DNA of 59,376 nucleotides from an uncultured Methanosarcinales archaeon (GTDB lineage Archaea; Nanobdellota; Nanobdellia; Woesearchaeales; JACPBV01). The stretch is from assembly GCA_964609455.1 (NCBI GenBank), contig CAZSRD010000002.1, positions 13,402 through 72,777 on the forward strand. The letters run 5' to 3'. The notes beneath the pieces are model-generated. The model searched no databases. It was not told the DNA's origin and worked only from the letters and a program-made list of their open reading frames with translations. Position numbers and translations under genes: made by a program. This document shows positions 10,455 through 28,853 of this stretch, one piece after another. Each line of letters starts with the position of its first letter. Positions within the stretch are counted from its first letter, which is position 1.

Positions 10455-11411
10455 TCAAACCAATAATTTTCCTTCTTTCATTATTTTTTTATCATCCACA
10501 AAAATTGTGGGTTTTTTAATCAAACCATCTATATGCAAAGGAACTTTCACCTTACCGCCAAAACCAGAATTATCTCCTAAAGCAATATGGCAAGTTCCCA
10601 TAACCTTTTCGTCTTCCAGCATATTCCCAGTAATAATTGCCTTATCATTAGCCCCAATACCAAATTCAGCAATATTTTTTGCTTTTTTGCCAACACAATT
10701 TAAATCTTCCATCAATTGCTTAGCATTTATGCACCCTTCAATTTTTTTAACATATCCCTTTTCAACAAAAACTTTGACCGATTTATCCACTTTACCGTTG
10801 CTTCCCAAAGAGCCATCTACAACATAAATACCTTCAGCACTCCCTTCAATAGGAGCAATAAATGACTCCCCATCTGGAAGATTTCCATACTTTCCCCTTT
10901 CTCTGAAAATCCCGCTAGTTCTTCCATGGGATTTTCTGCCTTTAATACTAAAAGAAATTTCTGTTCCTTTCTTGCTCATAACTTTAACAACCCGCCCTTT
11001 ATCCAGCACATCACAAATCTTGGCAATTCTTTTATGAATCTTATCATAATCCACATTCAAAGCCCTTTTTAACATAGCTTTAGTAATATCAGGTAATGTT
11101 GCAATTCTAGCTCCTTTTTTACAAGCTTCTTTCCTAGCTTTAGTGTGCGTTAAAGATTTTGTTGTTATCAATAACTCTACATCATAATTTAGCATTTTCT
11201 TTGCTACTTCCTTTGGAGGTTCATCACCATTGATTTTGCCTACAGGAATCTCTATCAAATCAATATTGCTGGTAAAATTTGAACCAACTTTAACAAACAA
11301 CTTACCTAAGCTTAATTTATTTTTATCAACAACAACAAGAACTCTTTCTTTTCTTTTAACCCCCATATTGATTCTAAAAATATTTAAAATGGCTTTTTCT
11401 AGCAAATTCAT
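10455..11411 (-). CDS. M29-family (aminopeptidase T/S-like) metallopeptidase, short form
   Basis: GNLPDGESFIAPIEG, EFGIGANDKA...NMLEDEKVMGTCHIALG, PLHIDG. Confidence 0.7.
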   Translation of the reverse strand: MNLLEKAILNIFRINMGVKRKERVLVVVDKNKLSLGKLFVKVGSNFTSNIDLIEIPVGKINGDEPPKEVAKKMLNYDVELLITTKSLTHTKARKEACKKGARIATLPDITKAMLKRALNVDYDKIHKRIAKICDVLDKGRVVKVMSKKGTEISFSIKGRKSHGRTSGIFRERGKYGNLPDGESFIAPIEGSAEGIYVVDGSLGSNGKVDKSVKVFVEKGYVKKIEGCINAKQLMEDLNCVGKKAKNIAEFGIGANDKAIITGNMLEDEKVMGTCHIALGDNSGFGGKVKVPLHIDGLIKKPTIFVDDKKIMKEGKLLV

Positions 11412-13195
11412 GCAACAAACTCCCCTTTTTTCAAGACAGAGTGAACCTTTTTATCTTTACCAACCCCATAAATATCAAGTTTCTGTTTAGGTGCATTTAC
11501 AACAATATCCCAATGATACATTGTTTTTCTATCAGGCTCAAACCCTAAACCTAAGGCTACGTGTATCATCCTGGCAATTTTCTCGTTGACAATAAGATAA
11601 TCACAAAGTTTTGCCTTAGGATTTGTATTAACCGCAAACTCGCCAATATTCCAAAAATTTTTCTTATAAATTTTAATAATTTCCTTAGGCAAGCTCCCAT
11701 TCTTTTCAATATCATTAATCTTCTGTCTTGCTTCATTCCTTTCTCTTGCCATAGCATCTTTTATTTTTTTATGTGCTTTTATTACATTGTATCTATTTCC
11801 TGTAAATTCCACTATTATGGGGGATTTTTCAGGTATTACATAACTTCTATCAATATTGATTACAACATCACCAACCATCATACCATAAATGCTTTCTGGA
11901 GTAACAAAAGTTTCACCACTGGGGAAATTTGCATAAGCTCCTGCCTTCATTTTTGTTCTTTTATAATGTTCCTTATCAATTATGCTGGTCACATCAGAAT
12001 CAGCTGCAGTAAACAGCATTCTTCTCCCATCTTTTGAAACCAAATTAACAGTAAAATCTGTTTTGTACCCATCAATTTTCTCGCCAACAACCCTTATATA
12101 ATCACATTTATTGAAGATATCTCTGATCTTCATGCTTCTCTTCCTTAATTTGTTATAGTTGATATTGCAAGTTTCTATAAAAATATCAATCGGTAAAGTT
12201 TCCGTAATAGCATACCTCATCATTGGATCTCTCTTCTCTAAAGCTGTCTGTGGCTCATACCTGTCTTTCAGCATTAATTGCCCTGGGCTGCTCCACCTGG
12301 TTTTTTTGTCTAATGAAGGATACCCTATCGAATCCCCAAAGAAATGCCTCCCATAATAGCCCTTGGCATGTATTCCAAAACCAGCTTGTGTATTGTCCAT
12401 CATATCAATTTTTAACAACTTAGAAAACTCATTATACTTCTTAAAAACATCCTCATCAACAGTTTTACTAAGCTCACAACCCCTTAATGTAGTTATCAAA
12501 TCAGCAGTTCTCACTGGCTTTGCAAGTAAAGAAAACCGGTCAGAAGAAGCCCCAACCCTTAATTTTACTTTAAATTTTTTAGCAGCATAAGCTAGGGCCA
12601 TAGCAATAGAATAAGAGTCCAAATAATCCTCTAATGGAAGTTCAGTGTTTTTTTCACTAGGCACAAGCACAAAAGAAATACCAACCTTTTCCCCTTTTTT
12701 TAAGTTAAATCCTTGTTTCCAAATCTTAGAAGCTGTTCCCAACAACTCCTTCCATCTGTAAACCTTATGCCAGCTATGCTTGTACTCTAACTCCATGGTT
12801 CCGCTAAATCCTTTTTGCTCTGCTTTCAATATTATTTCTGGCCTCTTAAAAATCTCCTTAAATACCTTAGTTTTTGTTCTTTTATTCACAGCGCTTACAA
12901 ATGATTTTAATGCCCCAACTTTCTTTGTTTTTAATCTCCTCTTCACCCAATCACCATAAACATACCAAATGTCTTTTAGAATTTCAAGGTTTATGCTGTT
13001 TTCATCTATAAGCATAACATGCAAATCCCCATTAAGCTCATGTATTGCTCTAGATAGGGGTGCTATAGAATAAAACGCCTTATTTTGTTTTATATTCAAA
13101 ATTACAAAAACAACCTTATTCTTGACCTTGCCTTTAAATTTTTTTATATAATAATCAACTTCTGCATTAAAAGTTTTTAGATTGTATTTCATCAT
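11408..13195 (-). CDS. Divergent M29-like peptidase homolog with long N-terminal extension
   Basis: C-terminal third repeats M29 landmarks: ANFPSGETFVTPE, GEFAVNTNPKA...IVNEKIARMIHVALGLG, HWDIVV. The N-terminal ~350 aa are unrecognised. ATGA overlap with the downstream M29 gene. Confidence 0.55.
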   Translation of the reverse strand: MMKYNLKTFNAEVDYYIKKFKGKVKNKVVFVILNIKQNKAFYSIAPLSRAIHELNGDLHVMLIDENSINLEILKDIWYVYGDWVKRRLKTKKVGALKSFVSAVNKRTKTKVFKEIFKRPEIILKAEQKGFSGTMELEYKHSWHKVYRWKELLGTASKIWKQGFNLKKGEKVGISFVLVPSEKNTELPLEDYLDSYSIAMALAYAAKKFKVKLRVGASSDRFSLLAKPVRTADLITTLRGCELSKTVDEDVFKKYNEFSKLLKIDMMDNTQAGFGIHAKGYYGRHFFGDSIGYPSLDKKTRWSSPGQLMLKDRYEPQTALEKRDPMMRYAITETLPIDIFIETCNINYNKLRKRSMKIRDIFNKCDYIRVVGEKIDGYKTDFTVNLVSKDGRRMLFTAADSDVTSIIDKEHYKRTKMKAGAYANFPSGETFVTPESIYGMMVGDVVINIDRSYVIPEKSPIIVEFTGNRYNVIKAHKKIKDAMARERNEARQKINDIEKNGSLPKEIIKIYKKNFWNIGEFAVNTNPKAKLCDYLIVNEKIARMIHVALGLGFEPDRKTMYHWDIVVNAPKQKLDIYGVGKDKKVHSVLKKGEFVA

Positions 13196-15672: not shown

Positions 15673-15794
15673 CGTGTAATCTCAAAACCCTTTGTTGTAT
15701 CAAACAGATATTACCATAAACCACCATAACGACGACATATTTATATAGAATCAAATATTTATACGAATAATATGCAAGTGATGGGGTGGTAGTT

Positions 15795-17216
15795 ATGAAG
15801 AAAATAATATTAGTTTGTTTGTTGGTTCTGGTTTTATTAGTTGGCTGTGGACAAAAAGTTGTATGTGATAAACCATACATTTTAGTTGGTTCTGAATGTT
15901 GTTTAGACAATGATGATAATGGTATTTGCGATAGAGATGAAGTCAAAGAAGAGCCTAAAATAGAAGCCCAAGAAGAACCACTTAAGCAAGAGGAAATTAA
16001 GGAAACACACGAAACTACCCCTCTAGAAGAATATACACTTAGTGACCTTCAAGCAAATTTGAATGAGGTCATTTGGGCAAAGAATAAGATATGGTCTTCA
16101 ATGGATAATCTTAGCAATGATACTGTTTCTTTCCTGAAATATGGTTTTGATGATTTGATAATAGCCGAATCTCATAATTTAGATGAATACTCTTATGATA
16201 ACTTTCTAAATGAAATCTTCTTTACCTTAATCAAAGACAAAGAAGTAGAACCAGCTAATTTTATAAGCTCTGATAATTACTTTAGAGACATACATCTCTC
16301 AAGTTTAGATGTGAAAGATAAAAGAGTATATTGGATTTATCAAAACAACATAATAACAGCACATTCTCTTAACTTTAAATGCAGCCCAACTTTATTTGTT
16401 GGAGTAATTCCTGATTACTTTGCCGAATCAACTTCAGCAACAGATGACAAAGTAGACGCAATAAATACTGGATTTGATACCTCTACAAGAAACATAATAT
16501 CTGACGTATACAAAGTATCAATAAACTGTCCGCTTGCAAATAAATATCCTAACAAAATATATGAATTACAACAAAGTATAAACAATGAATTAGGGGTAGA
16601 TTACTCTTTTGAAGTCAAAAAAATCCAAGACATATTGAGCCATATTTCAATAGATGATGACAATTCAATAAAAGTTTATGATGAAATTACCAGAAAATAC
16701 CACCCACAAACATATAAATATAAAAAGATGGTAATTGATGAGTTAGGCAATACAATTACTTCTATTGAAGACTTAAAAGAAATATCTCAAATACATTCTT
16801 CAGAGGACACAGAAACAATAAGTGATAATGAAGAGAACTTTAAGAATTCCTTTAAAAAGCCAAAATCAAATGAGAAAATGGAAGTTTCACTCTTAGACGA
16901 AATTGGTTTTGATGAGGTAAACGAAATAGACCCTAAAACTATAGAGGTATTGAATGGAAAATTCCAAGAATATGAGGTTATATATACCAGAACAGATACA
17001 GAAGATAACAGAAAAGAAAACCATGTAGGCCTAAATGTAGTTCATAAGCTAGTCTTCAAGTGTAAAGGTAATATAACAATATCTGTATATTCAAACTCTA
17101 TTGACTACATATATAACCAATATGTTCAGAGAAATATAGATAACGCATTTAAGTCAAGCAGAAACAATCTACTTAAGGATTTAGAAGGACTTAAAGAAGC
17201 TTGCGAATCTATATAA
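15795..17216 (+). CDS. Secreted lipoprotein, hypothetical, with Cys-rich N-terminal module
   Basis: MKKIILVCLLVLVLLVGC lipobox, then GQKVVCDKPYILVGSECCLDNDDNGICDRDE and an acidic linker. GGGGTGG SD lies before the ATG at 15795. Confidence 0.6.
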   Translation: MKKIILVCLLVLVLLVGCGQKVVCDKPYILVGSECCLDNDDNGICDRDEVKEEPKIEAQEEPLKQEEIKETHETTPLEEYTLSDLQANLNEVIWAKNKIWSSMDNLSNDTVSFLKYGFDDLIIAESHNLDEYSYDNFLNEIFFTLIKDKEVEPANFISSDNYFRDIHLSSLDVKDKRVYWIYQNNIITAHSLNFKCSPTLFVGVIPDYFAESTSATDDKVDAINTGFDTSTRNIISDVYKVSINCPLANKYPNKIYELQQSINNELGVDYSFEVKKIQDILSHISIDDDNSIKVYDEITRKYHPQTYKYKKMVIDELGNTITSIEDLKEISQIHSSEDTETISDNEENFKNSFKKPKSNEKMEVSLLDEIGFDEVNEIDPKTIEVLNGKFQEYEVIYTRTDTEDNRKENHVGLNVVHKLVFKCKGNITISVYSNSIDYIYNQYVQRNIDNAFKSSRNNLLKDLEGLKEACESI

Positions 17217-17256: not shown

Positions 17257-18402
17257 TCAACTCTTACTTTTAGTTAACCACCCAAACTTATAACCCCTAT
17301 GTTGCTTTATAGCATTTTCCAATCTCTTTTGGTTTTCAGGGGATTTTTCTAACAAACCCAATTTTAATATTTTTAATAAGTAAGCCCAATTTACAAATAA
17401 TTCAAATATATACAAATTTTTATTTTTGATTTTCTTTATTTTTCCATTTATACCTAAACTTTCAAATAGTTTTCTATAATCACTTACAAACCCACCATTA
17501 CACTCAAAAACCCTTAAATAAGAATGTAAACACCCTTTTCTATCTCTTGTACTGTAAAAATTACCATCTCCTGCGAGCAAACCTTGCAAGAAATAGACAA
17601 TTAATTTTTTGTTTGATTTACTTCCAATCAAATACTTTCTCACTTCATTCATCATGCTATCTATAATCTCAGCTAAAAGAGAATTGGTTATCCAAATTCT
17701 TACCGTATACTCTTTAATCCTTTTTGCTTGTTTATCATTAATGTTTTCTGCTTTAATTCCTATAGAAATCAATTTATCTTCAACCTCAATTATTTTTTCA
17801 TAATTAAGTTGCGGATTATACCTTATAGTACATTTGCATAGATTCAAGTTAACTAGATATCCCCAATATTTTAGAAAATCTTCAATTAAACCCATATCTG
17901 CATTCGTAAAATTAATCTCTCTGCCTCTTCTTTTTCTTAATTTTACTTTTCCGCCTTCTGCTTGGTAATAGCCGAGCAATCTGAAAAATTCTAGAGGTAC
18001 AAATCTATTTATGGTTATATCGTTTGGCCTTCCTTTAGTTGAATACCATAACTTAATCTTATTTTCTTCCTCTAAAGCAAGGATATCAAAACCAGATAAG
18101 ATTTTTTCAGGAATGAATGATAACACATCTATTTTATTGTTCAAAATAAACTTCTTTGGCCTATAAATGTTTTTTAAGATTGAAAACTGGATTTTAGTAG
18201 GCTCATTTAGAATATTCCATCTCAATTCTTTTGGAATAAAAAACCTGCCTTCTTTAGTTAATTTAGTAATAAAACAAATGTCTCCAATTTTAATCTCTAT
18301 AAATTGATTGCCAATAGTCTTTTGAATACTTTTAGGTAACCAAATTCGATTATTTTTAATATTTACAATCAAATCAAATTTTTTATTATTTTTTAAATTC
18401 AT
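17257..18402 (-). CDS. Free-standing double-motif LAGLIDADG homing-endonuclease-like protein with N-terminal AbrB/SpoVT-like repeats
   Basis: LAGLIDADG motifs LLGYYQAEGGK and FLQGLLAGDGNF are about 110 aa apart. The N-terminus has two RIWLPKSIQKTIG / RFFIPKELRWNI swapped-hairpin-like motifs. The ORF looks very AT-rich by eye. Confidence 0.75.
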   Translation of the reverse strand: MNLKNNKKFDLIVNIKNNRIWLPKSIQKTIGNQFIEIKIGDICFITKLTKEGRFFIPKELRWNILNEPTKIQFSILKNIYRPKKFILNNKIDVLSFIPEKILSGFDILALEEENKIKLWYSTKGRPNDITINRFVPLEFFRLLGYYQAEGGKVKLRKRRGREINFTNADMGLIEDFLKYWGYLVNLNLCKCTIRYNPQLNYEKIIEVEDKLISIGIKAENINDKQAKRIKEYTVRIWITNSLLAEIIDSMMNEVRKYLIGSKSNKKLIVYFLQGLLAGDGNFYSTRDRKGCLHSYLRVFECNGGFVSDYRKLFESLGINGKIKKIKNKNLYIFELFVNWAYLLKILKLGLLEKSPENQKRLENAIKQHRGYKFGWLTKSKS

Positions 18403-19668: not shown

Positions 19669-20526
19669 ATGATATCTGTAACAACTCTATGTTCATATAT
19701 GTACTGCCCAAGGAAGCTATTTCTTCAATACGTTCTTAAACTAACAGAGCCACCAAAGGAAGCGCTGATTAAAGGATCAATAAGGCATAAAGTATACGAA
19801 AACATAAATTTAGTAGAACAGGAGATTGTAAAAAGCATAAAAGAATTGCATACTTTGGAAGATCTGAAAGGTAAATATCACCAAAGATATAGAGAAATCC
19901 TATTAGATGTCATAAAACAGAAAAAAGAAGATCTAAAACAATTCAATATTCAGCCTCAAGACCTCTTCAAGCAAACTTGGCCTTTAATACTTGCAGAATC
20001 AGAAACAAGAGCCTCACTAATCCACAATTTTATTCTTAAAAATAATATTTTTGGAGAAGAGCTTTGGGAAAAGCTAACCCCTAAGATAGAATCAGAACTA
20101 AGGATAGAATCTAAAAATCTAGGCCTAAGAGGAATCATTGACCAAATTGAAGTATACCAAGTAGGATTTGTGCCAATCGAGCTTAAAACAGGTAAAACCC
20201 CAAAAGAAGGCGTTTGGCCCGGCCATAAAATCCAGCTAATAGCATATGCCTTATTATTAGAGGAAAAGTTCAAAACAGAGGTAAAGGAAGGTTTTGTACA
20301 CTATCTAGACTCTAAACAAAAGAGGCATATTCCCCTAAACCCATTTATGCGTCTTGAAGTCAAAGAATTAATCAAAAAAGTAAATTTCCTTCTAAACTCA
20401 GACAAAATACCAAATTTCGAAAAAAACCAGAATAAATGCATTAATTGTGGCTTAAAAGATGATTGTTATGACGAAAAAAAGCTAAAGACACTACTACAAA
20501 ATAAAAAACAAAAAGTTTATATATAA
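19669..20526 (+). CDS. Cas4-family PD-(D/E)xK exonuclease with 4-Cys cluster (stand-alone)
   Basis: N-terminal YCPRKLF Cys; IIDQIE...PIELKTGK (D..ExK); QLIAYALLLEE (QxxxY); C-terminal CINCGLKDDC (Cx2Cx5C). Confidence 0.75.
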   Translation: MISVTTLCSYMYCPRKLFLQYVLKLTEPPKEALIKGSIRHKVYENINLVEQEIVKSIKELHTLEDLKGKYHQRYREILLDVIKQKKEDLKQFNIQPQDLFKQTWPLILAESETRASLIHNFILKNNIFGEELWEKLTPKIESELRIESKNLGLRGIIDQIEVYQVGFVPIELKTGKTPKEGVWPGHKIQLIAYALLLEEKFKTEVKEGFVHYLDSKQKRHIPLNPFMRLEVKELIKKVNFLLNSDKIPNFEKNQNKCINCGLKDDCYDEKKLKTLLQNKKQKVYI

Positions 20527-20591: not shown

Positions 20592-20855
20592 ATGGCTGAA
20601 GAAGATAAAAAATTTTCAAAACAATTGATTGGAAAAACAGTAGTTTCAAAAACAGGAAAGCGCTTTGGTGAAGTAGGCGACATCATCTTTGAGACTAGGT
20701 CAGGAGAACTAATCCACATAATTCTTAAAAACCCGACATCATACACAGAAAAGCTGGAATTAGAAAAAGACAAAGAAAATAATATATTAATCCCTTTCTC
20801 AGCAGTTATCGCAATGGGAGATTTCTTAGTAATAGCTGAAGAAGATATCATATAG
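20592..20855 (+). CDS. PRC-barrel domain protein
   Basis: LIGKTVVSKTGKRFGEVGDIIFETRSGELIHIIL ... LIPFSAVIAMGDFLVI. GGGGGAT SD. Confidence 0.6.
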   Translation: MAEEDKKFSKQLIGKTVVSKTGKRFGEVGDIIFETRSGELIHIILKNPTSYTEKLELEKDKENNILIPFSAVIAMGDFLVIAEEDII

Positions 20856-21881: not shown

Positions 21882-22811
21882 TCAGGTTGTGTGCTTGACC
21901 ATAACACTAACTTCTTCATGTTCTTTGTAATCATAGACTACCCTCATGTTTACCTTCTTTTCAAAGTCCTTTCCATCTATTGAGGGATCACTAGTATCCT
22001 GTGTGCATCTTAGCATCCTTTTCCCGCCATACAATGTGATATAGCCTGTAGTAGCAGTGCCATCACTCAAGCCAGAGCATTCTAAACCAGTTAAGCCAGT
22101 CTCAATCTCAACCCACATCTTGTTTTTGTCTATAGTATCATCACTGCAATCTGTCTCTTGCTTTGAAACTAATCCAGAGCCCCTATGCACAATTTCAAAG
22201 GAAAAAGTAACTTTATCAGTTCCTGCAATACTCTCTTCAAAATTTTCAATCTGAACAGGAGCAGATGAGCTATAAGAAGTTTTTCTCTCACTAACCTTAC
22301 AGACCTCATCCTTTGTTTTAGTTAGATCATCTAAAACACATAAATCAGCTTGTGCTACTGTCCCATAAACATAACACACATTAGCTCTTATCTTATACTC
22401 ATTATTAGCTGCAAGATTCCCCAAAAACTTAAATCCGGGGAATGTTACATAAGTCACTGTTCCAGGTATTACATTTCCTTCGCTATCAATATAAGATTTA
22501 TCCAAATCCTCATCCGGATTTTTTGTAATATTTGGGTTATTAAAATCAGGAGGATAAAAACCCACTAAATCAATAGTTATCTTATCTTTTGGAACATCAT
22601 ACTCTCCTTTGTTCTCCACATTAACCGCAACCTCAAAAGGATAGCTCCCGCCATCATAAACCTCTGCAGGGGGGCTTCCCTCAACAAGGTCAAACTTTAT
22701 AGCCTGTGTGCCACCAATAAAAGGCTTTGTAAAAGTTGTAGATACATCTTTTTCACATCCAGCTAAAATAAACAAGCTCACAACCAATAACACCATAATA
22801 ATATTTCTCAT
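21882..22811 (-). CDS. Secreted lipoprotein, paralog 1 of a cluster-specific Cys-containing ectodomain family
   Basis: MRNIIMVLLVVSLFILAGC lipobox; GGAGGA SD lies before the ATG at 22811 (the track start overlaps the upstream gene). Shared motifs: SPPAEVYDGG..FEVAVNVENKG, DLCVLDD..VCKV..SSAPVQIENFEE, and a C-terminal C..C pair plus VVYDY. Confidence 0.7.
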   Translation of the reverse strand: MRNIIMVLLVVSLFILAGCEKDVSTTFTKPFIGGTQAIKFDLVEGSPPAEVYDGGSYPFEVAVNVENKGEYDVPKDKITIDLVGFYPPDFNNPNITKNPDEDLDKSYIDSEGNVIPGTVTYVTFPGFKFLGNLAANNEYKIRANVCYVYGTVAQADLCVLDDLTKTKDEVCKVSERKTSYSSSAPVQIENFEESIAGTDKVTFSFEIVHRGSGLVSKQETDCSDDTIDKNKMWVEIETGLTGLECSGLSDGTATTGYITLYGGKRMLRCTQDTSDPSIDGKDFEKKVNMRVVYDYKEHEEVSVMVKHTT

Positions 22812-22836
22812 TTTACCATCCTCCATCTTTTTTTCA

Positions 22837-23817
22837 TTAGCTAAACGAGACTTCCTCAAAAATCTTTATACTTCTCTCAGCAGAAGTTGTATAACCATAA
22901 CTCAACTTGATATTTAACGCAGTTTCATATGCTTTCCCTTGCGCAATACTTTTATCCAATCTGCAGAAAATATAACCCTTACCGCCAATTAATTGTACAT
23001 CTTTATTTTGTGCAGGCCTGCATTCAGTCATAGGCACATCTCCAACAGCAATTTTCTCTATATGCACATTGTTCATGTCTCTCCAATCATAACCTTCATT
23101 AGGGTTATTGTCTATTGCCGATTCAGGAATAACTAAACCGCCGCCAACATTCTCAATATATATTTTAAACAGGAAATCATTGCTTGTAACACTCTCCTCA
23201 ACCTGGGTAACAGCAATAGGCGCTCCTTGGCTACCAACACTTATAGTGTCCTGTATACTGCAAACTTTTTCTCTTACTCTTGTGCTCCTTGGCTCTGGGT
23301 CAACACAAATAATTGGGTTGGCAATTGTATAATAAAAATAAGTTGCAGTAAAAATCAAGCTTGGACTGTAAACAGGCATTCCATCAGGCAGATCATTAAT
23401 ATTTAATTGGAACTCAACAGCACTATAACCACCATCTCTATTGTAAGGGCTTCTGCCCTCAAGCTCTTCTCCTTTTAAATCAACACCCTGGCCAATACTT
23501 GAACCTAGTTTAGGGTATATAGTTAAAATACCTTGATCATATCCTCCTACCCATAATTTGCCGTCAAAATCCCCTAATTCCTCATTCTGGGGGAAAGCGC
23601 CTTTATTTCTTACTTCAACAACAAACTTAACATTATTATCATTTTCATATAATTCAGTAGGTGCATCAGTAGGAAACTCTACTTTCAACCCCTCTGTACC
23701 AACTCTATAATTTACCTCAGACGGCTCATCGGTTCTTTTAATCCCGCATCCAGACAAAGCAAGAATTAAAACTATCAAAATAGCCATTAAAACTCTCTTT
23801 TTTTCCATTTTAATCAT
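22837..23817 (-). CDS. Secreted lipoprotein, paralog 2
   Basis: MIKMEKKRVLMAILIVLILALSGC lipobox. Motifs: APTELYEND..FVVEVRNKG, ICVDPEP..KVCSIQD..SQGAPIAVTQVEE, C..C, LSYGY. Confidence 0.7.
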   Translation of the reverse strand: MIKMEKKRVLMAILIVLILALSGCGIKRTDEPSEVNYRVGTEGLKVEFPTDAPTELYENDNNVKFVVEVRNKGAFPQNEELGDFDGKLWVGGYDQGILTIYPKLGSSIGQGVDLKGEELEGRSPYNRDGGYSAVEFQLNINDLPDGMPVYSPSLIFTATYFYYTIANPIICVDPEPRSTRVREKVCSIQDTISVGSQGAPIAVTQVEESVTSNDFLFKIYIENVGGGLVIPESAIDNNPNEGYDWRDMNNVHIEKIAVGDVPMTECRPAQNKDVQLIGGKGYIFCRLDKSIAQGKAYETALNIKLSYGYTTSAERSIKIFEEVSFS

Positions 23818-23854
23818 TTATTAATACCCCTTTATTATTTTTGTATATAAACTT

Positions 23855-23945
23855 TATGGTTTTTGTTTAAAAACCATAACGGTTTAGGAGTTTGTCAAAA
23901 ACCAAAGGTTTTTGAGCATGCTCAGAAATCGCTTTGTGATTTCTG
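23855..23945. repeat. Three consecutive short perfect hairpins in the paralog 3 / paralog 2 spacer
   Basis: tatggttttt-gttt-aaaaaccata (23855-23878, 10 bp). caaaaacc-aaa-ggtttttg (23896-23914, 8 bp). cagaaatc-gctttgt-gatttctg (23923-23945, 8 bp). Confidence 0.8.
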
Positions 23946-23983: not shown

Positions 23984-24970
23984 TTATTTCCCTAACTTCT
24001 TTATCTTAACCTCCTTCCACCCGGTTTTAGTATAGCCATAATCCAAAGTAATGTAAAGTGGTGCAGAAAACGTCCCCATATTCTCATCAAAACCTTCTTC
24101 ATAAGAGCACACTATTGTCCCTTTATTTTCTTCTAAGGTAACAATGCCGCCATTACTGCATTTTAACATATTCTTTCCATCCTCATTTGATAATCGAGCC
24201 ACCACTTTAATTTTATCGCGTATTACTGTTTTAGAACAAGAATCCTTTATATCAACATCATCCTTAACTACAATACCTTGGTCTAAATTCTGGACTAGAA
24301 TTGTAAACCTAGGGATAACTTTAGAAGAGCTTCCACCAATCGGAATCATCTCGCTCTCTATTTTAGTAACAGCGACAGGCGCCCCTTGTGAATCTAAATT
24401 CAAGTTCTCTACTTTACAAGATTTATCCCTTACTTTTTGTTCAGAACCCGCATCTATACAAACAGTCTCTCCAACTATTGTTTGGTATTTATGGCAGTAA
24501 GTTACCTTGACCTTAACTGGAAGCTCTTTAGCAGTTGGGGATATAACACTTAATTTCTCAGTCTTAAAATTAAATGTCAAAATTTCACTTCCCCCTTCTT
24601 GAAACTCTGCATTTTTTCCATTCAAATCAAATTTTATCATACCATCATCTGTAAATGAAAGCCCTTTAGGAATCAATGAATCCTGATCTAGTTTCAAAAT
24701 CTGATTATTATCAGTCCATACCAGCAAATAGCCATTCTTAATATCAGAAGCTCCTTTATTGAATAATCTAATCCCTACTGGCAATATTCCGTTCTCATAA
24801 ACCTCATCAGGAGGGGCATTTTCAAAAAATTTCCAGGTTAACCCTTCTTTTCCTTTATATATTTTTTCAGTTGTAACCGAAGCAGCGTCATTACTGCTTT
24901 TTCCTAAGAAACCTCCGCTGCATCCTGAAATCAGGAGCAAAACAGTTAGTGCTAAAATTATCGTTTTCAT
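23984..24970 (-). CDS. Secreted lipoprotein, paralog 3
   Basis: MKTIILALTVLLLISGC lipobox. Motifs: APPDEVYENG..GIRLFNKG, VCIDAGS..KSCKVEN..SQGAPVAVTKIES, C..C, LDYGY. ATGA overlap with the upstream 821-aa gene. Confidence 0.7.
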   Translation of the reverse strand: MKTIILALTVLLLISGCSGGFLGKSSNDAASVTTEKIYKGKEGLTWKFFENAPPDEVYENGILPVGIRLFNKGASDIKNGYLLVWTDNNQILKLDQDSLIPKGLSFTDDGMIKFDLNGKNAEFQEGGSEILTFNFKTEKLSVISPTAKELPVKVKVTYCHKYQTIVGETVCIDAGSEQKVRDKSCKVENLNLDSQGAPVAVTKIESEMIPIGGSSSKVIPRFTILVQNLDQGIVVKDDVDIKDSCSKTVIRDKIKVVARLSNEDGKNMLKCSNGGIVTLEENKGTIVCSYEEGFDENMGTFSAPLYITLDYGYTKTGWKEVKIKKLGK

Positions 24971-27432
24971 TTTAGAGACCTGACAAAAACAGGGACAGTT
25001 GTCTGTATTTCGTAAATATAATCCACACTTGCCCTATAAAAATAAGTTGCTATTGGTGCGCTGCCTAAAACGTCCCCTACACTGCCTTGTTTCACATTAA
25101 CCAAGCATCTCCACGATTGGTATGTAGTAATAGGCACTTTAACCTTCTTCATCCTTACTTCCGTAACTTTATATGTTTTATAACCCTCTGCTCCTGCTTC
25201 ACTATCTTCAACTAATTCAAACTCGCCCCTGCAATAAGTCCCGTCATCTGTTTCCAGCTCCAACTTATCTGGTATCTGTATTCTGACATCAGTTACATTT
25301 TTTATCTGTCCATTGGTCCATGCATTTTCAACAGTAACTCCAAGGTAAGGATAACTATCTCCATCCCTTAGCAAACCAATTGGCGGGTCATTTGTGCCCA
25401 TCCCAAGTTTTACAGGCCCATAAGTAGAAACACCAACTCCTTTTCTGTCAGGAATGCCATAATGAATCAAAGGATCAATATTATTTTTCTTCAAATCACG
25501 CATGGTTTGCATATCCATAAAATGAGTTCTTAAATAGGCCAATGTTTCAAAATTAAAATTTACTTTAACTTCAATAGCATTCGTACCCTCTTTCAATTTC
25601 CCAGGTTCAAACCTGCACTCAAAACCAATATCTTCAAATTGATCTATTTTATACCCCTCTGCTTTAGCCAAAACATCAGGTTTGATGGTTCCTTTTTCCT
25701 CACCAGACCAACAGCCCATAGTAATATTAATTGCCTCATCTATTGTTTTTGCCCTCAGGTTGCCCCATACAACTACTACATCATCATTTTTATCAAATTG
25801 GCTATTAGACGGCTTTACATCTTCCAGGTATACGCCAAGCTTACTGCTCGGATCTTGGTTCTCTTCTACCTTGCTGTTGTAATAGCCGCCAGTAGCGTAC
25901 TCTACACTACTTTCAAACTGTTTTTGTATGTTTGCAGGTATAGCCTTTATCTTTGCAATAACATTATCAAAAAATCCTTTTGCTTGGGCTACTTCAGCAC
26001 TATCTACATTTATTTGAGCCCTTATATTTGCCCACCCATACATCCCCTCTGTTAAAGCGATTATATAAAAAATTATTACAGCAACCATCAAAAACTTTGC
26101 AGCTCTGCTTTTTCCTTGCTGGCCAGTATAAAAAACCAAAAACAAAAACCACAAAGGAAACACAAACCTGTTTGCGATTAATGAAGTAGGTGCAAAATAC
26201 CTTAATACTCCAAAACCAAAAAAGTCAATTATCAGCAAAACACTAATCATAAAATTTGGTTTTGTCCAATCTTCACTGCTCTCTCTTAAAACAAAAGCCC
26301 ATATTAAAGCAGCAACCAATAAGTGATGAGGGCCGCTCTCTAACCCGCCTAATGAAAAAATAGTAGAGCCAGTAACCAACAAAACAGCCCAAGAATAAAA
26401 TTTCTCCCTATCTTCAATTAGATTAGACACAATAACCATAGAAGCTAACAAGGTTGTAACCGTAAGTGAAAGGCTTATATATGGAATTTGCCTAACCCCC
26501 ATTGTCGTTTCCAAATAATTTGCTATAGTTAAAGGGATAAGCACAACAACAATAAAAATACCAGCTTTCCTGGATTTTGCAGAACCCAACGCAAGTAAAA
26601 TAATCAAAACAGCTAACACATAAATTGGAAGCATTATCCTTATCAATAATTCTATGCCGCCTGGTCGAATTAATTGAAGAAATACCTTATAATCCAATCC
26701 GCCAAAATGCAGCCAAAAGTAATCAATCACAGACAAAGCTAAAGTCAGTAACATCCAAAAACCAACATAAGCAACATCATGTACTACTCCAACCGCAGAA
26801 GCACCCAATCCAAATCCTGCCCCTGCAGCAGCCCCAGTTGTCATAGCTTTAGCAGCATCAGATTCCCTTTCAATACGTCTTTCATTTTTCTTTGTAGCAT
26901 CTTTTTCAGCAGTTGCAGCTTCCCTAACCCCCTTTTTTTCTGCAAGATCAGCCTCTAACCTCTGTTTATCCCACTTTCTGTCTATAGGTGAAGCTGTGAT
27001 GTTTCTTCGACGATCACCATCCACAAGCTGACCTTTTGCTCTAGCTTCCATAACTGCTAACCCACTCATACGTCCTGCATTTCTATCAGCTCCGCTATTA
27101 GCTATTTTATTCAAAGCAGCCTTTTTATATTCTGCAATTTGTTGAGGGTTAAGTCTTGAAAGGCCTTTCTCTCTTGCGAGACTAAGAATATCTTTCCCAG
27201 CCCCACCACCTTCCCTTGCAGCAGTTCTTGCACTTAATCTAACTGCACTGTTTGCCGCCTTCCAAGCTGATTTTGCACTTCCTCCGGCACCTTTTGTAGC
27301 ACCCCTCACAACTCCACCAGCTCCTCTCGCAACTACAGCAGCCCCTTTAGCAGCCTCAGCACCTGCCTTCACAACAACTTTTCCAGCCTCAGCAGCCCCT
27401 TTAGCAGCTGTAGCCGCTCCTCCAACTACCAT
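24967..27432 (-). CDS. Polytopic membrane protein: Ala/Gly/Lys low-complexity N-terminal region, ~9 TM helices, and a C-terminal ectodomain related to the three lipoproteins
   Basis: N-terminus GGAATAAKGAAEAGKVVVKAGAEAAKGAAVVARGAGG. Hydrophobic segments span about aa 205-470. C-terminus GPVKLGMG..YCRGEF..WRCLVNV..VDYIYE parallels the lipoprotein motifs. AGGAGG SD lies before the ATG. Confidence 0.7.
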   Translation of the reverse strand: MVVGGAATAAKGAAEAGKVVVKAGAEAAKGAAVVARGAGGVVRGATKGAGGSAKSAWKAANSAVRLSARTAAREGGGAGKDILSLAREKGLSRLNPQQIAEYKKAALNKIANSGADRNAGRMSGLAVMEARAKGQLVDGDRRRNITASPIDRKWDKQRLEADLAEKKGVREAATAEKDATKKNERRIERESDAAKAMTTGAAAGAGFGLGASAVGVVHDVAYVGFWMLLTLALSVIDYFWLHFGGLDYKVFLQLIRPGGIELLIRIMLPIYVLAVLIILLALGSAKSRKAGIFIVVVLIPLTIANYLETTMGVRQIPYISLSLTVTTLLASMVIVSNLIEDREKFYSWAVLLVTGSTIFSLGGLESGPHHLLVAALIWAFVLRESSEDWTKPNFMISVLLIIDFFGFGVLRYFAPTSLIANRFVFPLWFLFLVFYTGQQGKSRAAKFLMVAVIIFYIIALTEGMYGWANIRAQINVDSAEVAQAKGFFDNVIAKIKAIPANIQKQFESSVEYATGGYYNSKVEENQDPSSKLGVYLEDVKPSNSQFDKNDDVVVVWGNLRAKTIDEAINITMGCWSGEEKGTIKPDVLAKAEGYKIDQFEDIGFECRFEPGKLKEGTNAIEVKVNFNFETLAYLRTHFMDMQTMRDLKKNNIDPLIHYGIPDRKGVGVSTYGPVKLGMGTNDPPIGLLRDGDSYPYLGVTVENAWTNGQIKNVTDVRIQIPDKLELETDDGTYCRGEFELVEDSEAGAEGYKTYKVTEVRMKKVKVPITTYQSWRCLVNVKQGSVGDVLGSAPIATYFYRASVDYIYEIQTTVPVFVRSLK

Positions 27433-27509
27433 ATAACCAAACCTCCTAGAATATCAACCCAATCCTCAATCTTAAGACTAGCCATTCTTATTCCTCAGAA
27501 AAACACGAT

Positions 27510-28709
27510 TCATTTCTCTTCCAATACAACCTTCAGCTCAACTATGTCTAATGTATTTTGAGGAGTTATCTTGATAAAATTATTATCCTCCTCAATCCAG
27601 TTGTTGATATTTTTGTCATATAGCCTAATTGCCTCGTCTACCCTGGCTAAATGGTCATTTACATTTAAGTCAAATTTCTTCCTGTTTTTGTCATCAACAA
27701 ACTCTATCTTCAATAAAGCATTATAATCCCCTATATCTTCCCAAGTTGTTTCATTTACCTCAAAATAATAAACAGCTTCAGGAGTGTCTTCCTCTGTAAA
27801 TCTCATATTAATCTGCTCTACAGAATAGCTCCCTTTATTTGTCCTAAAAATAACCTTATTCTGTCCAGCGCTTAAAGCGCTTATTGGGACATCCTGCGCA
27901 TATCTGTCATCACAGACAGGAACAGCTGAAAAAACATTTCTATTGTTAATAAAAACATCTAAAACACCGACAGTAGCAGCAGAAGCGCAATAAGGTATAA
28001 ACCGCAGCTCAGCTTTCTCTAGATTCTGGTATTCTGTATCAGTCAAAGCAAAAACATTCTGGCTTTCCTGTCTGCTTAAATCAGTTAGATCTCCAATTAT
28101 CTTAACATTGTCCAGGGCATATTCATTAGTTGTCCAAAATTTAGCGCCAACGCCAGAAACACTAAACTCTAATTCATTCTCGTTTTGCAATAAGCTTTTC
28201 TTAAGCTTTATTGGCTCAACATTCAGGCTGTTTATATCATACTCATAAATAAGCTCACCATTTAATTTTATAGATAAAATTCCTGTTCTTTTAGGGGCAG
28301 AAAAACTCAGAACAACATTATCAGTATTCTCTAAATCAACAATAGTAAATTTGATTACCTTAACTCTCTTATCAAACCACCCATTTCTTACAGATATGGG
28401 GTTTATAGTATCCAAAACCTTGGAATTTGTCGTCTCAAAAATATACACATTAGGAATATCTTTATCTCTCACATTTCCTACTGGGTCCAATCTTCCAACA
28501 TTTTCAGAAAGCAGCTCAATTTTAGCCTCTTTTGAACTGCTGCCCTTATAATCACTTTTTTCTTCCAATAAATCTTTTCTATCCTCTGTTGGAAGAAATA
28601 AGATATAAACTATAATCACAGCAGCAATTACTGCTATTAATATAGCAGCATTCAAGCCGCCTTGGGACTTTAAATTGTGAAGCAATTTATGGCTTTTCAA
28701 TTTTCTCAT
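27510..28709 (-). CDS. N-terminally TM-anchored, beta-rich extracellular protein; first gene of the envelope cluster
   Basis: MRKLKSHKLLHNLKSQGGLNAAILIAVIAAVIIVYILFL anchor, then Asn/Val/Ile-rich beta-like sequence with a Cys pair (IPYCASAA..VPVCDD). GGTGAT SD lies before the ATG at 28709 (the track start is GTG). Confidence 0.65.
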   Translation of the reverse strand: MRKLKSHKLLHNLKSQGGLNAAILIAVIAAVIIVYILFLPTEDRKDLLEEKSDYKGSSSKEAKIELLSENVGRLDPVGNVRDKDIPNVYIFETTNSKVLDTINPISVRNGWFDKRVKVIKFTIVDLENTDNVVLSFSAPKRTGILSIKLNGELIYEYDINSLNVEPIKLKKSLLQNENELEFSVSGVGAKFWTTNEYALDNVKIIGDLTDLSRQESQNVFALTDTEYQNLEKAELRFIPYCASAATVGVLDVFINNRNVFSAVPVCDDRYAQDVPISALSAGQNKVIFRTNKGSYSVEQINMRFTEEDTPEAVYYFEVNETTWEDIGDYNALLKIEFVDDKNRKKFDLNVNDHLARVDEAIRLYDKNINNWIEEDNNFIKITPQNTLDIVELKVVLEEK

Positions 28710-28777
28710 CTGTATCACCTTTTTTAGAGTATTATCTAAGTTTATTGAAATAATAAATAAATTTATATATAAACTTA

Positions 28778-28828
28778 TTGTTTTAGTATACTACTAAAAC
28801 AATACGGTTTAGAAATCAAAATTTCTAA
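28778..28828. repeat. Two perfect hairpins in the divergent region between the envelope cluster and pelota
   Basis: ttgttttagta-tac-tactaaaacaa (28778-28802, 11 bp). tttagaaat-caa-atttctaaa (28808-28828, 9 bp). Flanked by a 15-nt direct repeat aaacttattgtttta at 28771 and 28828. Confidence 0.8.
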
Positions 28829-28853
28829 AACTTATTGTTTTAATCAAACTATC

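What the first reader, a model, noticed from the sequence alone, without database searches (positions are those of the whole stretch)
24967..27432. 821-aa chimeric membrane protein with a locally GC-rich Ala/Gly/Lys low-complexity head
The first ~80 codons encode almost only A/G/K/V/R (GGAATAAKGAAEAGKVVVKAGAEAAKGAAVVARGAGGVVRGATKGAGGSAK).

This produces a stretch around 27180-27432 that I judge by eye to be roughly half G+C, in a window that is otherwise very AT-rich. It includes a 19-nt direct repeat, cagcagcccctttagcagc, at about 27336 and about 27388.

The rest of the protein then has three parts:
- A charged ~120-aa region (RRNITASPIDRKWDKQRLEADLAEKKGVRE...).
- About 9 hydrophobic helices.
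- An ectodomain paralogous to the adjacent lipoproteins.

Such a head-TM-ectodomain layout suggests a transmembrane link between a cytoplasmic partner and the secreted paralogs. Gly/Ala-rich tails are reminiscent of some VirB6/TrbL-type proteins, but nothing else here supports a secretion system.
Basis: seen in the sequence. Interest (0 to 1): 0.7.

Follow-up and report, generated by a model that had tools for sequence, protein, structure and literature searches.

The report
DPANN surface-module membrane platform protein
This is a real 821-residue membrane protein of a tiny symbiotic (DPANN) archaeon: an unannotated nine-helix anchor carrying an outward-facing stalk, encoded in a five-gene surface module that its relatives keep at the same genomic spot, where the same stalk often carries bacterial-cell-wall-cutting enzymes.

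Summary
The ORF, the A/G/K/V/R head, the local 54-58% GC, the exact 19-nt repeat and about 9 TM helices are all present. The GC rise comes from amino-acid composition only (GC1/GC2 0.69/0.67, GC3 0.235), so the head is not foreign DNA.

The head is an ordered cationic amphipathic helix. All 14 K/R residues are spaced i+4 or i+7. It is absent from the nearest homologues, and similar N-termini occur in a few distant relatives.

The protein (B) belongs to a large unannotated family of at least 1,106 clusters at 50% identity. No Pfam, NCBIfam or PDB match was found. The TM core models confidently but matches no solved fold: not VirB6/TrbL, Wzy/WaaL or GT-C.

Topology is N-in/C-out, with a double beta-sandwich ectodomain holding four invariant cysteines. 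About 41 of 96 scanned relatives carry C-terminal peptidoglycan hydrolases. This copy has none.

In 48 unique loci the order pelota | A-B-C1-C2-C3 | RFC is nearly invariant.

The claimed paralogy between the ectodomain and the lipoproteins is not supported.

My best reading is that B is the membrane platform of a clade-wide surface module for host or cell-wall contact. That function is inferred, not shown.

The parts
24967..27432 (-). Gene B: 821-aa polytopic envelope protein (the finding). Stop codon at 24967-24969.
   Evidence: ORF. Homologues. AF2 model has pLDDT 80.9.
27178..27432 (-). Residues 1-85: A/G/K/V/R head, predicted to be a cationic amphipathic helix in the cytoplasm.
   Evidence: Composition and GC1/2/3 are. 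K/R sit at 11, 18, 22, 29, 36, 43, 47, 54, 58, 65, 69, 73, 80 and 87. Mean hydrophobic moment at 100 degrees is 0.45, against 0.21 +/- 0.044 in shuffles (0 of 500 reach it). K/R resultant R = 0.85, permutation p < 1e-4, with an Ala-rich opposite face. AF2 predicts a helix with pLDDT below 50.
27336..27354 (+). Copy 1 of the exact 19-nt direct repeat. It encodes AAKGAA on the minus strand.
27390..27408 (+). Copy 2 of the exact 19-nt direct repeat, 54 nt (18 codons) from copy 1.
27298..27346 (+). 21-nt (7-codon) tandem repeat, 2.3 copies, inside the head.
27442..27446 (-). GGAGG Shine-Dalgarno-like site 9 nt upstream of the ATG of B.
   Evidence: Read from the sequence.
26818..27177 (-). Residues 86-205: charged helical cytoplasmic region. 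It is homologous to the N-terminal region of the nearest relatives (invariant Y102, D151, W154).
26029..26817 (-). Residues 206-468: G/A-rich juxtamembrane segment plus a nine-helix TM core. Conserved residues are D237, G245, H370, D403 and P426, with N421/R422 and W428 less strongly conserved.
   Evidence: Hydropathy and loop charges are. The AF2 core model has pLDDT 88.8 and pTM 0.80. No fold or family match was found.
25888..26028 (-). Residues 469-515: extracellular stalk helix ending in the family's most conserved motif, ATGGYY.
24970..25887 (-). Residues 516-821: conserved double beta-sandwich ectodomain with four invariant cysteines (C574, C606, C734, C776).
   Evidence: AF2 pLDDT is above 94. 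Foldseek gives only weak Ig-like or adhesin-type hits.
27510..28718 (-). Gene A: about 400-aa protein, N-terminally anchored and beta-rich. It lies directly upstream of B in nearly every locus surveyed. The likely true start is ATG 28709. The N-terminus is KK[AS]QGG[LM]NAA followed by a hydrophobic helix.
23984..24970 (-). Gene C1: lipobox lipoprotein. Its start overlaps the stop of B (ATGA).
22837..23817 (-). Gene C2: lipobox lipoprotein, paralogue of C1 and C3.
21882..22859 (-). Gene C3: lipobox lipoprotein, paralogue of C1 and C2.
28762..28773 (-). TATA-like element TTTATATATAAA upstream of A. Candidate archaeal promoter of the module (inferred from sequence only).
23844..23851 (-). TATA-like element TTTATATA upstream of C2. 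Candidate internal promoter (inferred from sequence only).

Best explanation
**What it is**
The ORF is a genuine gene of a Woesearchaeota/Nanoarchaeota-type DPANN archaeon. I call it B.

**Topology**
The basic N-terminal 215 residues lie in the cytoplasm. Nine TM helices follow. The C-terminal 350 residues lie outside the cell: a stalk helix plus two beta-sandwich domains with two likely disulfides.

**Role (inferred)**
B is the membrane platform of a five-gene surface module, A-B-C1-C2-C3.
- A is a single-anchor beta-rich protein.
- C1-C3 are three anciently duplicated lipoproteins.
- The module sits between pelota and RFC-small in essentially every relative examined.

B's ectodomain acts as an adaptor or stalk. 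In roughly 40% of family representatives it carries C-terminal peptidoglycan hydrolases: SLT, GH73 glucosaminidase, M23, amidase or NlpC/P60. This includes orthologues in the same operon. I therefore infer that the module works at the cell surface in contact with, or in breaching of, a partner's murein wall. The window's B is a minimal version without a hydrolase.

**The head**
The A/G/K head is a long helix with one straight Lys/Arg stripe and an Ala-rich opposite face. I infer that it lies on, or clusters at, the inner face of the membrane. Its high GC is a codon-composition side effect.

**Shown versus inferred**
- Shown: gene, composition, repeats, family size, synteny, fusions, confident models, absence of known-family matches.
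- Inferred from sequence: topology.
- Inferred: complex formation, host or wall-contact function, head function.
For: - **Real coding region.** GC3 is 0.235 with GC1/2 at 0.69/0.67, and an SD precedes the ATG.
- **Family size.** 1,106 representatives at E <= 1e-3 and 533 at E <= 1e-30.
- **Topology.** Net charge is +18 for residues 1-215. K/R-rich loops at 285-289 and 439-445 fall on the same side as the N-terminus. There are 9 TM helices. Four invariant cysteines and fused wall hydrolases place the C-terminus outside.
- **Models.** Full-length pLDDT is 80.9, with the core above 90 and the ectodomain above 94. The core alone gives pLDDT 88.8 and pTM 0.80.
- **Fusions.** SLT occurs in 23 of 41 long members, plus M23 (3), Amidase_3 (1) and NlpC/P60 (1). 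Of 55 mid-length members, 9 have SLT, 2 Amidase_2, 1 NlpC/P60 and 1 Glucosaminidase.
- **Orthologues in the same operon.** L008's B has GH73 at E 3.7e-17. L009's B has an SLT-like region (E 0.0045, below Pfam's cut-off); its C-terminal end looks like an Fn3-type domain by eye.
- **Synteny.** The order pelota(-) A B C C C rfc(-) holds in 48 unique loci. A lies upstream in 28 of 32 by a strict distance rule, and in at least 30 of 32 by eye. At least 3 C genes lie downstream in 24 of 25.
- **Coupling.** B's stop and C1's start overlap as ATGA.
- **Head order.** Similar MV...[KR]G...[KR] A/G-rich N-termini occur in distant members L045, P0127 and P0090. About one third of members have an A/G-rich juxtamembrane segment.
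- **Literature.** Large SLT-domain proteins specific to Woese/Pacearchaeota have been noted as candidate bacterial-wall binders or degraders (PMC8204110, PMC9723730).
Against: - The function rests on domain fusion and gene neighbourhood only. There are no experimental data.
- The window's own B has no hydrolase, and no hydrolase-like ORF is in the 59-kb window.
- The partner organism is unknown, and the role of murein hydrolases in these archaea is itself only a hypothesis in the literature.
- A conserved polar cluster on the outer half of the TM core (D237, H370, D403, N421/R422) is not explained by a pure anchor role.
- The head has low model confidence (pLDDT below 50). It is absent in the closest relatives, so any head function is lineage-specific.
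- I could not model A or C, nor any complex.
Confidence: 0.55

Rival explanations
1. B is a transmembrane coupler: the A/G/K head binds a cytoplasmic partner and passes a signal or force to secreted paralogues, the lipoproteins.
For: - B is in an operon with the three lipoproteins and is translationally coupled to C1.
- The head is an ordered amphipathic helix, not random low complexity.
Against: - The head is absent from the three nearest homologues.
- It is only 9-20 residues long in many members that keep the same operon.
- The ectodomain is not detectably paralogous to the lipoproteins.
- No cytoplasmic partner gene is conserved in the neighbourhood. The flanks are pelota and RFC.
Confidence: 0.12
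2. The nine-helix core is an enzyme acting at the outer leaflet. One option is a dedicated lipidation or maturation enzyme for the adjacent lipoproteins C1-C3. Another is a glycan polymerase or ligase, as the NCBI label 'EpsG family' on one homologue would imply.
For: - Residues conserved at 90-95% (D237, H370, D403), plus N421/R422 at about 70%, cluster on the outer half of the core.
- B always sits directly upstream of three lipobox proteins.
- The paper on archaeal lipoprotein lipidation states that some archaea with many lipoproteins lack AliA/AliB (PMC12462473).
- P0004 is labelled 'EpsG family protein' by NCBI.
Against: - No Pfam hit (EpsG, Wzy_C or any other) at E <= 10 in ten diverse cores.
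- No PDB fold match. The best is E 1.1 with TM <= 0.21.
- Short family members such as P0156 (504 aa, same operon) lack the H370/D403 segment.
- Most family conservation lies in the ectodomain, not the core.
- AliA could not be compared because I had no sequence for it.
Confidence: 0.12
3. The module remodels the archaeon's own envelope, for example during division or surface-layer insertion. On this view the fused hydrolases act on a self polymer and not on a partner's wall.
For: - The module sits at a fixed, core-genome position next to housekeeping genes and is nearly universal in the clade.
- By analogy from general knowledge, FtsX-type polytopic proteins in bacteria control wall hydrolases.
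Against: - SLT, GH73, M23, amidase and NlpC/P60 are murein-specific families, and archaea are not known to make murein (established knowledge).
- No wall-synthesis genes appear in the window.
- The literature interprets these hydrolases as directed at bacteria (PMC8204110, PMC9723730).
Confidence: 0.1
4. B is a VirB6/TrbL-like channel of a cryptic type IV secretion or conjugation system.
For: - The architecture is polytopic with Gly/Ala-rich tails.
- The hydrolase domain types found on relatives (SLT, M23, NlpC/P60, amidase) are those used by Gram-positive conjugation systems (general knowledge).
Against: - No TrbL/VirB6 Pfam hit.
- No fold match in the PDB.
- No VirB4/VirD4-type ATPase, relaxase or VirB8-like gene in any of 48 unique loci.
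- No relatives in viral contigs, and the module sits in core chromosomal context.
Confidence: 0.03
5. The head is an artefact: either a mis-called start, a non-coding GC-rich repeat, or a recently inserted foreign fragment.
For: - The head is absent in the nearest homologues.
- It contains short repeats.
- AF2 confidence is low.
Against: - There is strong three-base periodicity: GC1/2 at 0.69/0.67 against GC3 at 0.235, which matches the genome's AT bias.
- A GGAGG lies 9 nt upstream of this ATG.
- K/R phasing is highly non-random (p < 1e-4).
- Similar N-termini occur in distant family members.
Confidence: 0.04

Closest known systems
[quoted passage not shown] 2021, family fam00969, PMC8204110; Vigneron et al. 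2022, PMC9723730)
   Same: It comes from the same archaeal lineages. The window's protein shares its TM core and ectodomain with many proteins that end in an SLT (GH23) domain.
   Different: This copy has no SLT or other hydrolase domain. The papers annotate only the SLT domain. Neither paper mentions the membrane platform, the conserved ectodomain or the A-B-C1-C3 operon in the passages I read. I could not verify that fam00969 is this family, because the supplement look-up found nothing.
Gram-positive conjugation envelope components: a VirB6-like polytopic protein (PrgH/ConG/TcpH type) plus a wall hydrolase (PrgK/CwlT/TcpG type). This comparison rests on general knowledge.
   Same: A polytopic membrane protein works with surface-exposed SLT, M23, NlpC/P60 or amidase domains.
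   Different: There is no Pfam or fold similarity. No ATPases or other T4SS genes are present. Here the hydrolase is fused to the polytopic protein itself. The locus is core chromosomal.
AglB/STT3-type proteins (a polytopic core with a C-terminal beta-rich soluble domain)
   Same: The overall layout is similar. There are weak Foldseek hits of the ectodomain to the AglB/STT3 soluble domain (E 3.6e-4, TM 0.11-0.13).
   Different: The TM core gives no match to any GT-C structure. There is no Pfam STT3 hit. The ectodomain hits are generic beta-sandwich similarity.
Lipid-binding amphipathic helices with a Lys stripe and small-residue faces (alpha-synuclein or apolipoprotein type). This is a functional analogy for the head only, from general knowledge.
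   Same: It is a long helix. Basic residues are confined to one 120-degree sector. The remaining faces are A/G/V-rich.
   Different: The periodicity is 3.6 residues (7/4 spacing), not the 11/3 repeat. There is no sequence relationship. Membrane binding is untested.
AliA/AliB archaeal lipoprotein lipidation proteins (PMC12462473)
   Same: These are polytopic archaeal membrane proteins with conserved polar residues and a functional tie to lipobox proteins. B sits directly upstream of three lipobox genes.
   Different: AliA/AliB have no large ectodomain, to my knowledge. B's conserved residues are D/H/D, not the paired Arg (AliA) or His (AliB) described in the paper.

Membership tests
VirB6/TrbL (type IV secretion inner-membrane component) | Match to the TrbL/VirB6 profile (Pfam) | tested here: not met
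   No such hit for B at E <= 1, nor for ten diverse TM cores at E <= 10.
VirB6/TrbL (type IV secretion inner-membrane component) | Fold similarity to solved T4SS membrane components | tested here: not met
   Foldseek of the TM-core model (pLDDT 88.8) against the PDB gives a best E of 1.1 and TM <= 0.21.
VirB6/TrbL (type IV secretion inner-membrane component) | Neighbouring VirB4/VirD4 ATPases and other T4SS genes | tested here: not met
   The flanks are pelota and RFC-small in the window and in 48 unique loci.
Wzy / O-antigen ligase / EpsG polymerases | Match to the Wzy_C or EpsG profiles | tested here: not met
   No hit at E <= 10 in ten TM cores. This set includes P0004, which NCBI labels EpsG.
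Wzy / O-antigen ligase / EpsG polymerases | Fold similarity to solved ligase or polymerase structures | tested here: not met
   One search found no significant PDB match.
Wzy / O-antigen ligase / EpsG polymerases | Glycosyltransferase or flippase genes in the neighbourhood | tested here: not met
   None were seen in the window cluster or in related loci.
GT-C glycosyltransferases (AglB/STT3, ArnT, PMT) | Acidic residue(s) in the first extracytoplasmic loop | tested here: inconclusive
   D237 (95%) lies at the outer end of TM1, and a GGxDY motif lies in loop 1. This is compatible with GT-C but not specific to it.
GT-C glycosyltransferases (AglB/STT3, ArnT, PMT) | GT-C transmembrane fold or family profile | tested here: not met
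   The TM core gives no PDB match and no Pfam hit. Only the beta-sandwich ectodomain weakly resembles the AglB soluble domain.
Woese/Pacearchaeota SLT-domain surface proteins (literature family) | SLT (GH23) domain present | tested here: not met
   B has no Pfam domain. It ends directly after the conserved ectodomain.
Woese/Pacearchaeota SLT-domain surface proteins (literature family) | Homology to the non-SLT part of SLT-bearing proteins | tested here: met
   A profile of B and its relatives retrieves proteins of which 23 of 41 long members and 9 of 55 mid-length members carry SLT.
Woese/Pacearchaeota SLT-domain surface proteins (literature family) | Identity with family fam00969 of Castelle et al. 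2021 | not testable with these tools
   The family identifier is not in the supplementary text held.
Lipoprotein family C1-C3 (claimed paralogy of the B ectodomain) | Significant sequence or profile similarity | tested here: not met
   BLASTP gives E 0.04-1.4. hhalign gives P 0.06-0.08 and probability below 1%, against P 0.26 for a reversed control. The C HMM hits only C1-C3, and the B-ectodomain HMM hits only B.
Lipoprotein family C1-C3 (claimed paralogy of the B ectodomain) | Shared fold (two beta-sandwich domains, one disulfide each) | not tested
AliA/AliB archaeal lipoprotein lipidation proteins | Sequence or structure similarity to arCOG02177/02178 | not tested
B gives no NCBIfam or Pfam hit of any kind.
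Archaeal class III (prepilin-like) signal peptide (for neighbour A) | [KR]-[GA] cleavage motif followed by a hydrophobic helix | tested here: inconclusive
   The invariant KK[AS]-QGG[LM]NAA plus hydrophobic helix resembles the motif but departs from it at positions +2 and +3. No prepilin peptidase was looked for.

The most novel reading that the evidence does not exclude
A-B-C1-C2-C3 is a previously undescribed envelope machine that defines a clade within the Woesearchaeota/Pacearchaeota-type DPANN archaea. It is built on a nine-helix membrane platform with no known fold. It mediates contact with host cells and breaching of the host's murein wall, using interchangeable C-terminal 'warheads'. 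It may also serve as a conduit for what is taken up. The A/G/K head would then be an in-plane, anionic-lipid-binding helix that positions or clusters the machine from the cytoplasmic side.
Probability: 0.3. Interest if true: 0.8.

Novelty: new variant of a known kind. Interest (0 to 1): 0.55.

Why it matters
How the very abundant but uncultivated Woesearchaeota and Pacearchaeota attach to and exploit other cells is unknown. Published work points only to 'large SLT-domain proteins' as a hint that they target bacteria.

This analysis makes three additions:
- Those hydrolase domains sit on a conserved membrane platform.
- The platform is part of an almost invariant five-gene module at a fixed chromosomal position.
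- The platform's transmembrane core has no detectable relative among known families or solved folds.

That gives a concrete set of five proteins to localise, to model as a complex, and to test for wall degradation and host contact.

The GC-rich A/G/K head that drew attention is a minor feature by comparison. It is lineage-specific, and its interest lies in its unusually regular cationic stripe.

Tried and rejected
**Searches that found nothing useful**
- The word-indexed homologue search returned only three relatives. It did not improve with a 60-sequence profile and returned 14 unnamed proteins with an ectodomain-only profile. Hydrophobic and low-complexity words probably saturate the candidate list. 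The exhaustive representative search was what revealed the family.
- NCBIfam and PADLOC: nothing for B, A or C1-C3.
- PDB sequence search with profiles of B and A: nothing.
- Foldseek of the full model against the PDB gave only weak beta-sandwich hits, with TM <= 0.13. Against BFVD viral structures it gave nothing meaningful.
- No relatives in IMG/VR viral contigs.

**Tests that could not be completed**
- Strain-level variation in head length. There is no close relative in JGI metagenomes, and the protein's 90% cluster has a single member.
- A look-up of fam00969 in the supplement of PMC8204110.

**Ideas rejected**
- NCBI's 'EpsG family' label on P0004 could not be reproduced.
- Foreign origin of the head is ruled out by GC3.
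- Paralogy between the ectodomain and the lipoproteins is not supported.
- The weak DUF6009 hit in the charged region (E 0.16, below cut-off) was dismissed.

Full report
**1. The observation**

The ORF at 24967..27432 on the minus strand is real: 821 codons with an ATG start. A GGAGG lies 9 nt upstream. Residues 1-85 are 78% A/G/V/K/R.

In 150-nt windows the GC content reaches 0.54-0.58 at 27200-27424. The surrounding window runs at about 0.28-0.41. The 19-mer CAGCAGCCCCTTTAGCAGC occurs exactly twice, at 27336-27354 and 27390-27408. None is expected by chance. A 21-nt tandem repeat lies next to it.

The GC excess is confined to codon positions 1 and 2 (0.69 and 0.67). Position 3 is 0.235, as AT-rich as the rest of the gene. 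The 'GC island' is therefore a consequence of Ala (GCN) and Gly (GGN) codons in a translated frame. It is not a sign of foreign DNA.

**2. The head is ordered, not random low complexity**

All 14 Lys/Arg residues of positions 1-88 sit at 11, 18, 22, 29, 36, 43, 47, 54, 58, 65, 69, 73, 80 and 87. Every spacing is 4 or 7.

- The mean hydrophobic moment at 100 degrees is 0.45. Shuffled sequences give 0.21 +/- 0.044, and 0 of 500 reach the observed value.
- On a helical wheel the basic residues fall in one 120-degree sector (resultant 0.85, permutation p < 1e-4).
- The opposite face is Ala-rich.
- AlphaFold2 draws the region as helix but with pLDDT below 50.

The three nearest homologues are about 50% identical over the rest of the protein. 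They do not have this head. They start instead with a conserved LKRLIAxYNxEK helix.

The head is not unique, however. Distant members begin with similar N-termini:
- L045: MVIPIIMGIARGAGMAARGIGAAVKGVGRGIGAAAKG, with K/R at 11, 18, 25, 29, 36.
- P0127 and P0090 are of the same type.

About a third of 59 representatives have a segment of at least 45% A+G just before TM1. Across the family the cytoplasmic N-terminus ranges from 9 to 319 residues. Whatever the head does, it is an accessory.

**3. Topology and structure**

Hydropathy and AlphaFold2 agree on nine membrane helices between residues 218 and 468.

- The first 215 residues carry net charge +18.
- The K/R-rich short loops at 285-289 and 439-445 fall on the same side as the N-terminus.
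- The C-terminal 350 residues form a long helix followed by two beta-sandwich domains, with pLDDT above 94.
- Those domains hold four invariant cysteines.
- In relatives the C-terminal domain is followed by cell-wall hydrolases, which must act outside the cell.

**4. What family is it?**

Pfam, NCBIfam, PADLOC and a PDB sequence search give nothing. An exhaustive profile search shows that the protein belongs to a large family: 1,106 representatives at 50% identity with E <= 1e-3, and 533 with E <= 1e-30. Named sources are Woesearchaeota or 'Nanoarchaeota' MAGs.

The TM core was modelled on its own, with pLDDT 88.8 and pTM 0.80. It has no significant match in the PDB: best E is 1.1 and TM <= 0.21. 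Ten diverse cores give no Pfam hit even at E <= 10. VirB6/TrbL, Wzy/WaaL/EpsG and GT-C are thus tested and not met. The NCBI label 'EpsG family' on one homologue could not be reproduced.

The ectodomain gives only weak, generic Ig-like or adhesin-type matches (integrin calf/thigh, RbmA, MSCRAMMs, AglB soluble domain), all with TM <= 0.13.

**5. Functional clues from fusions**

- Of 41 long family members, 23 carry an SLT domain, 3 Peptidase_M23, 1 Amidase_3 and 1 NlpC/P60.
- Of 55 mid-length members, 9 carry SLT, 2 Amidase_2, 1 NlpC/P60 and 1 Glucosaminidase. A few carry PKD, crystallin-like or Fn3 domains.
- Orthologues at the same chromosomal position differ in their C-terminal domain:
  - none in the window and in P0002;
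  - a Cys-rich helical extension in P0003 and P0004;
  - GH73 in L008 (E 3.7e-17);
  - an SLT-like region in L009 (E 0.0045, below Pfam's cut-off), followed by what looks like an Fn3-type end by eye.

The conserved part therefore behaves as a platform that presents interchangeable peptidoglycan-degrading domains. The window's copy has none. No hydrolase-like ORF occurs elsewhere in the 59 kb.

[quoted passage not shown] They proposed binding to, or attack on, bacterial walls (PMC8204110; PMC9723730; also PMC10936187, PMC11537232). Those papers discuss only the SLT domain.

**6. Genomic context**

B is flanked upstream by A. A is about 400 aa, with an invariant KK[AS]QGG[LM]NAA N-terminus plus a hydrophobic helix. 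It is 49% identical in lineages where B is only about 25% identical.

Downstream lie three lipobox proteins, C1-C3. They are mutual paralogues (E 2e-16, 5e-11 and 7e-12). Each has its own orthologue in other genomes. B's stop overlaps C1's start as ATGA.

I scored 56 related loci (48 unique) with HMMs for A, B and C, and with the window's pelota and RFC proteins. The order pelota(-) | A B C C C | RFC-small(-) is essentially invariant:
- A lies directly upstream in 28 of 32 informative loci by a strict distance rule, and in at least 30 of 32 by eye.
- At least three C genes lie downstream in 24 of 25.

No ATPase or other secretion gene is part of the module. No relatives were found in viral contigs.

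**7. The paralogy claim**

The ectodomain of B is not detectably related to C1-C3.
- BLASTP gives E 0.04-1.4.
- hhalign gives probability below 1% and P 0.06-0.08, against 0.26 for a reversed control.
- Neither HMM cross-hits in the window.

Both proteins are two-domain, Cys-containing and beta-rich. A remote structural relationship is therefore not excluded, but I could not model C.

**8. Interpretation**

Most likely (about 0.55), B is the membrane platform of a clade-wide five-protein surface module. The module acts outside the cell, in contact with or in breaching of a partner's murein wall. The window's B is a minimal version.

The head is a lineage-specific cationic amphipathic helix on the cytoplasmic face. 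The Ala face and the straight Lys/Arg stripe suggest in-plane membrane association or helix-helix clustering. This is inference only.

One unexplained feature remains. A cluster of conserved polar residues lies on the outer half of the core: D237 (95%), H370 (90%), D403 (93%) and N421/R422 (about 70%). This keeps an enzymatic reading alive, including lipoprotein maturation (PMC12462473 notes archaea that lack AliA/AliB). Against it, short members with the same operon lack that segment.

**9. Novelty and score**

- The gene is a hydrolase-less, AGK-headed variant within a family whose SLT-bearing members are already mentioned in the literature.
- I did not find the platform, its apparently new TM fold or the invariant five-gene module described in the papers I could search.
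- The A/G/K head, which motivated the finding, is real but secondary.
- Interest is 0.55. It would be higher if the module is shown to be the host-contact apparatus of these archaea.

Noticed in passing
window 27510-28718 (-), and A orthologues in L001, L003, L004, L008, L009: Neighbour A has an invariant N-terminal motif, KK[AS]QGG[LM]NAA, followed by a hydrophobic helix. This resembles an archaeal class III (prepilin-like) signal peptide. A is far more conserved than B: 49% identity where B is about 25%. L009's A has a weak CBM-like Pfam hit (E 0.0017).
   Followed up: partly
window 28700-28720 (-): The listed GTG start of A (28718) lies inside an AAGGTGA Shine-Dalgarno-like site. The ATG at 28709 is the more plausible start and gives a 399-aa product.
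   Followed up: partly
window 28762-28850 (-) and 23844-23860 (-): A similar element, A(A/C)(A/C)ATAA(A)GTTTATATA, lies upstream of A and upstream of C2. The core AACAATAAGTTT occurs twice in the pelota/A intergenic region. These are candidate archaeal BRE/TATA promoters and suggest at least two transcription starts in the module.
   Followed up: no
window 24967-24970: The stop codon of B and the start codon of C1 overlap as ATGA, which suggests translational coupling.
   Followed up: yes
L010 8001-9515 (P0156), also L041: Some lineages have a much shorter B (about 500 aa). It has about five TM helices, a 10-residue N-terminus, and no H370/D403 segment. The A-B-C1-C3 module and the pelota/RFC flanks are nevertheless intact.
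   Followed up: partly
window 17257-18402 (-): A 381-aa ORF carries LAGLIDADG_3 homing-endonuclease-like domains (E 1.3e-11).
   Followed up: no
window 11408-13195 (-) and 15786-17216 (+): Two large ORFs (595 and 476 aa) have no Pfam match at E <= 0.01. They sit among protease and peptidase genes (PAN-like AAA ATPase, M29, M24, M16).
   Followed up: no
window 19669-20526 (+), 20592-20855 (+): A Cas4/PD-(D/E)XK-like nuclease gene and a small PRC-barrel gene sit next to RFC-small. The same pair is syntenic in L001, L002 and L009. No CRISPR array was seen, so this may be a stand-alone Cas4-family nuclease.
   Followed up: no
window 27425-27484 (-): A 19-codon upstream ORF (MASLKIEDWVDILGGLVIW) ends across the start codon of B. 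It is probably fortuitous, but it overlaps B's ribosome-binding site.
   Followed up: no
P0119 (residues about 25-150): One family member has long, near-perfect protein repeats (VKTAGQATWNKTKAVGRGARNVGQTAWVGTKAAGRGVGNVAGTT) in its cytoplasmic head. Repeat expansion in the head therefore recurs in this family.
   Followed up: no
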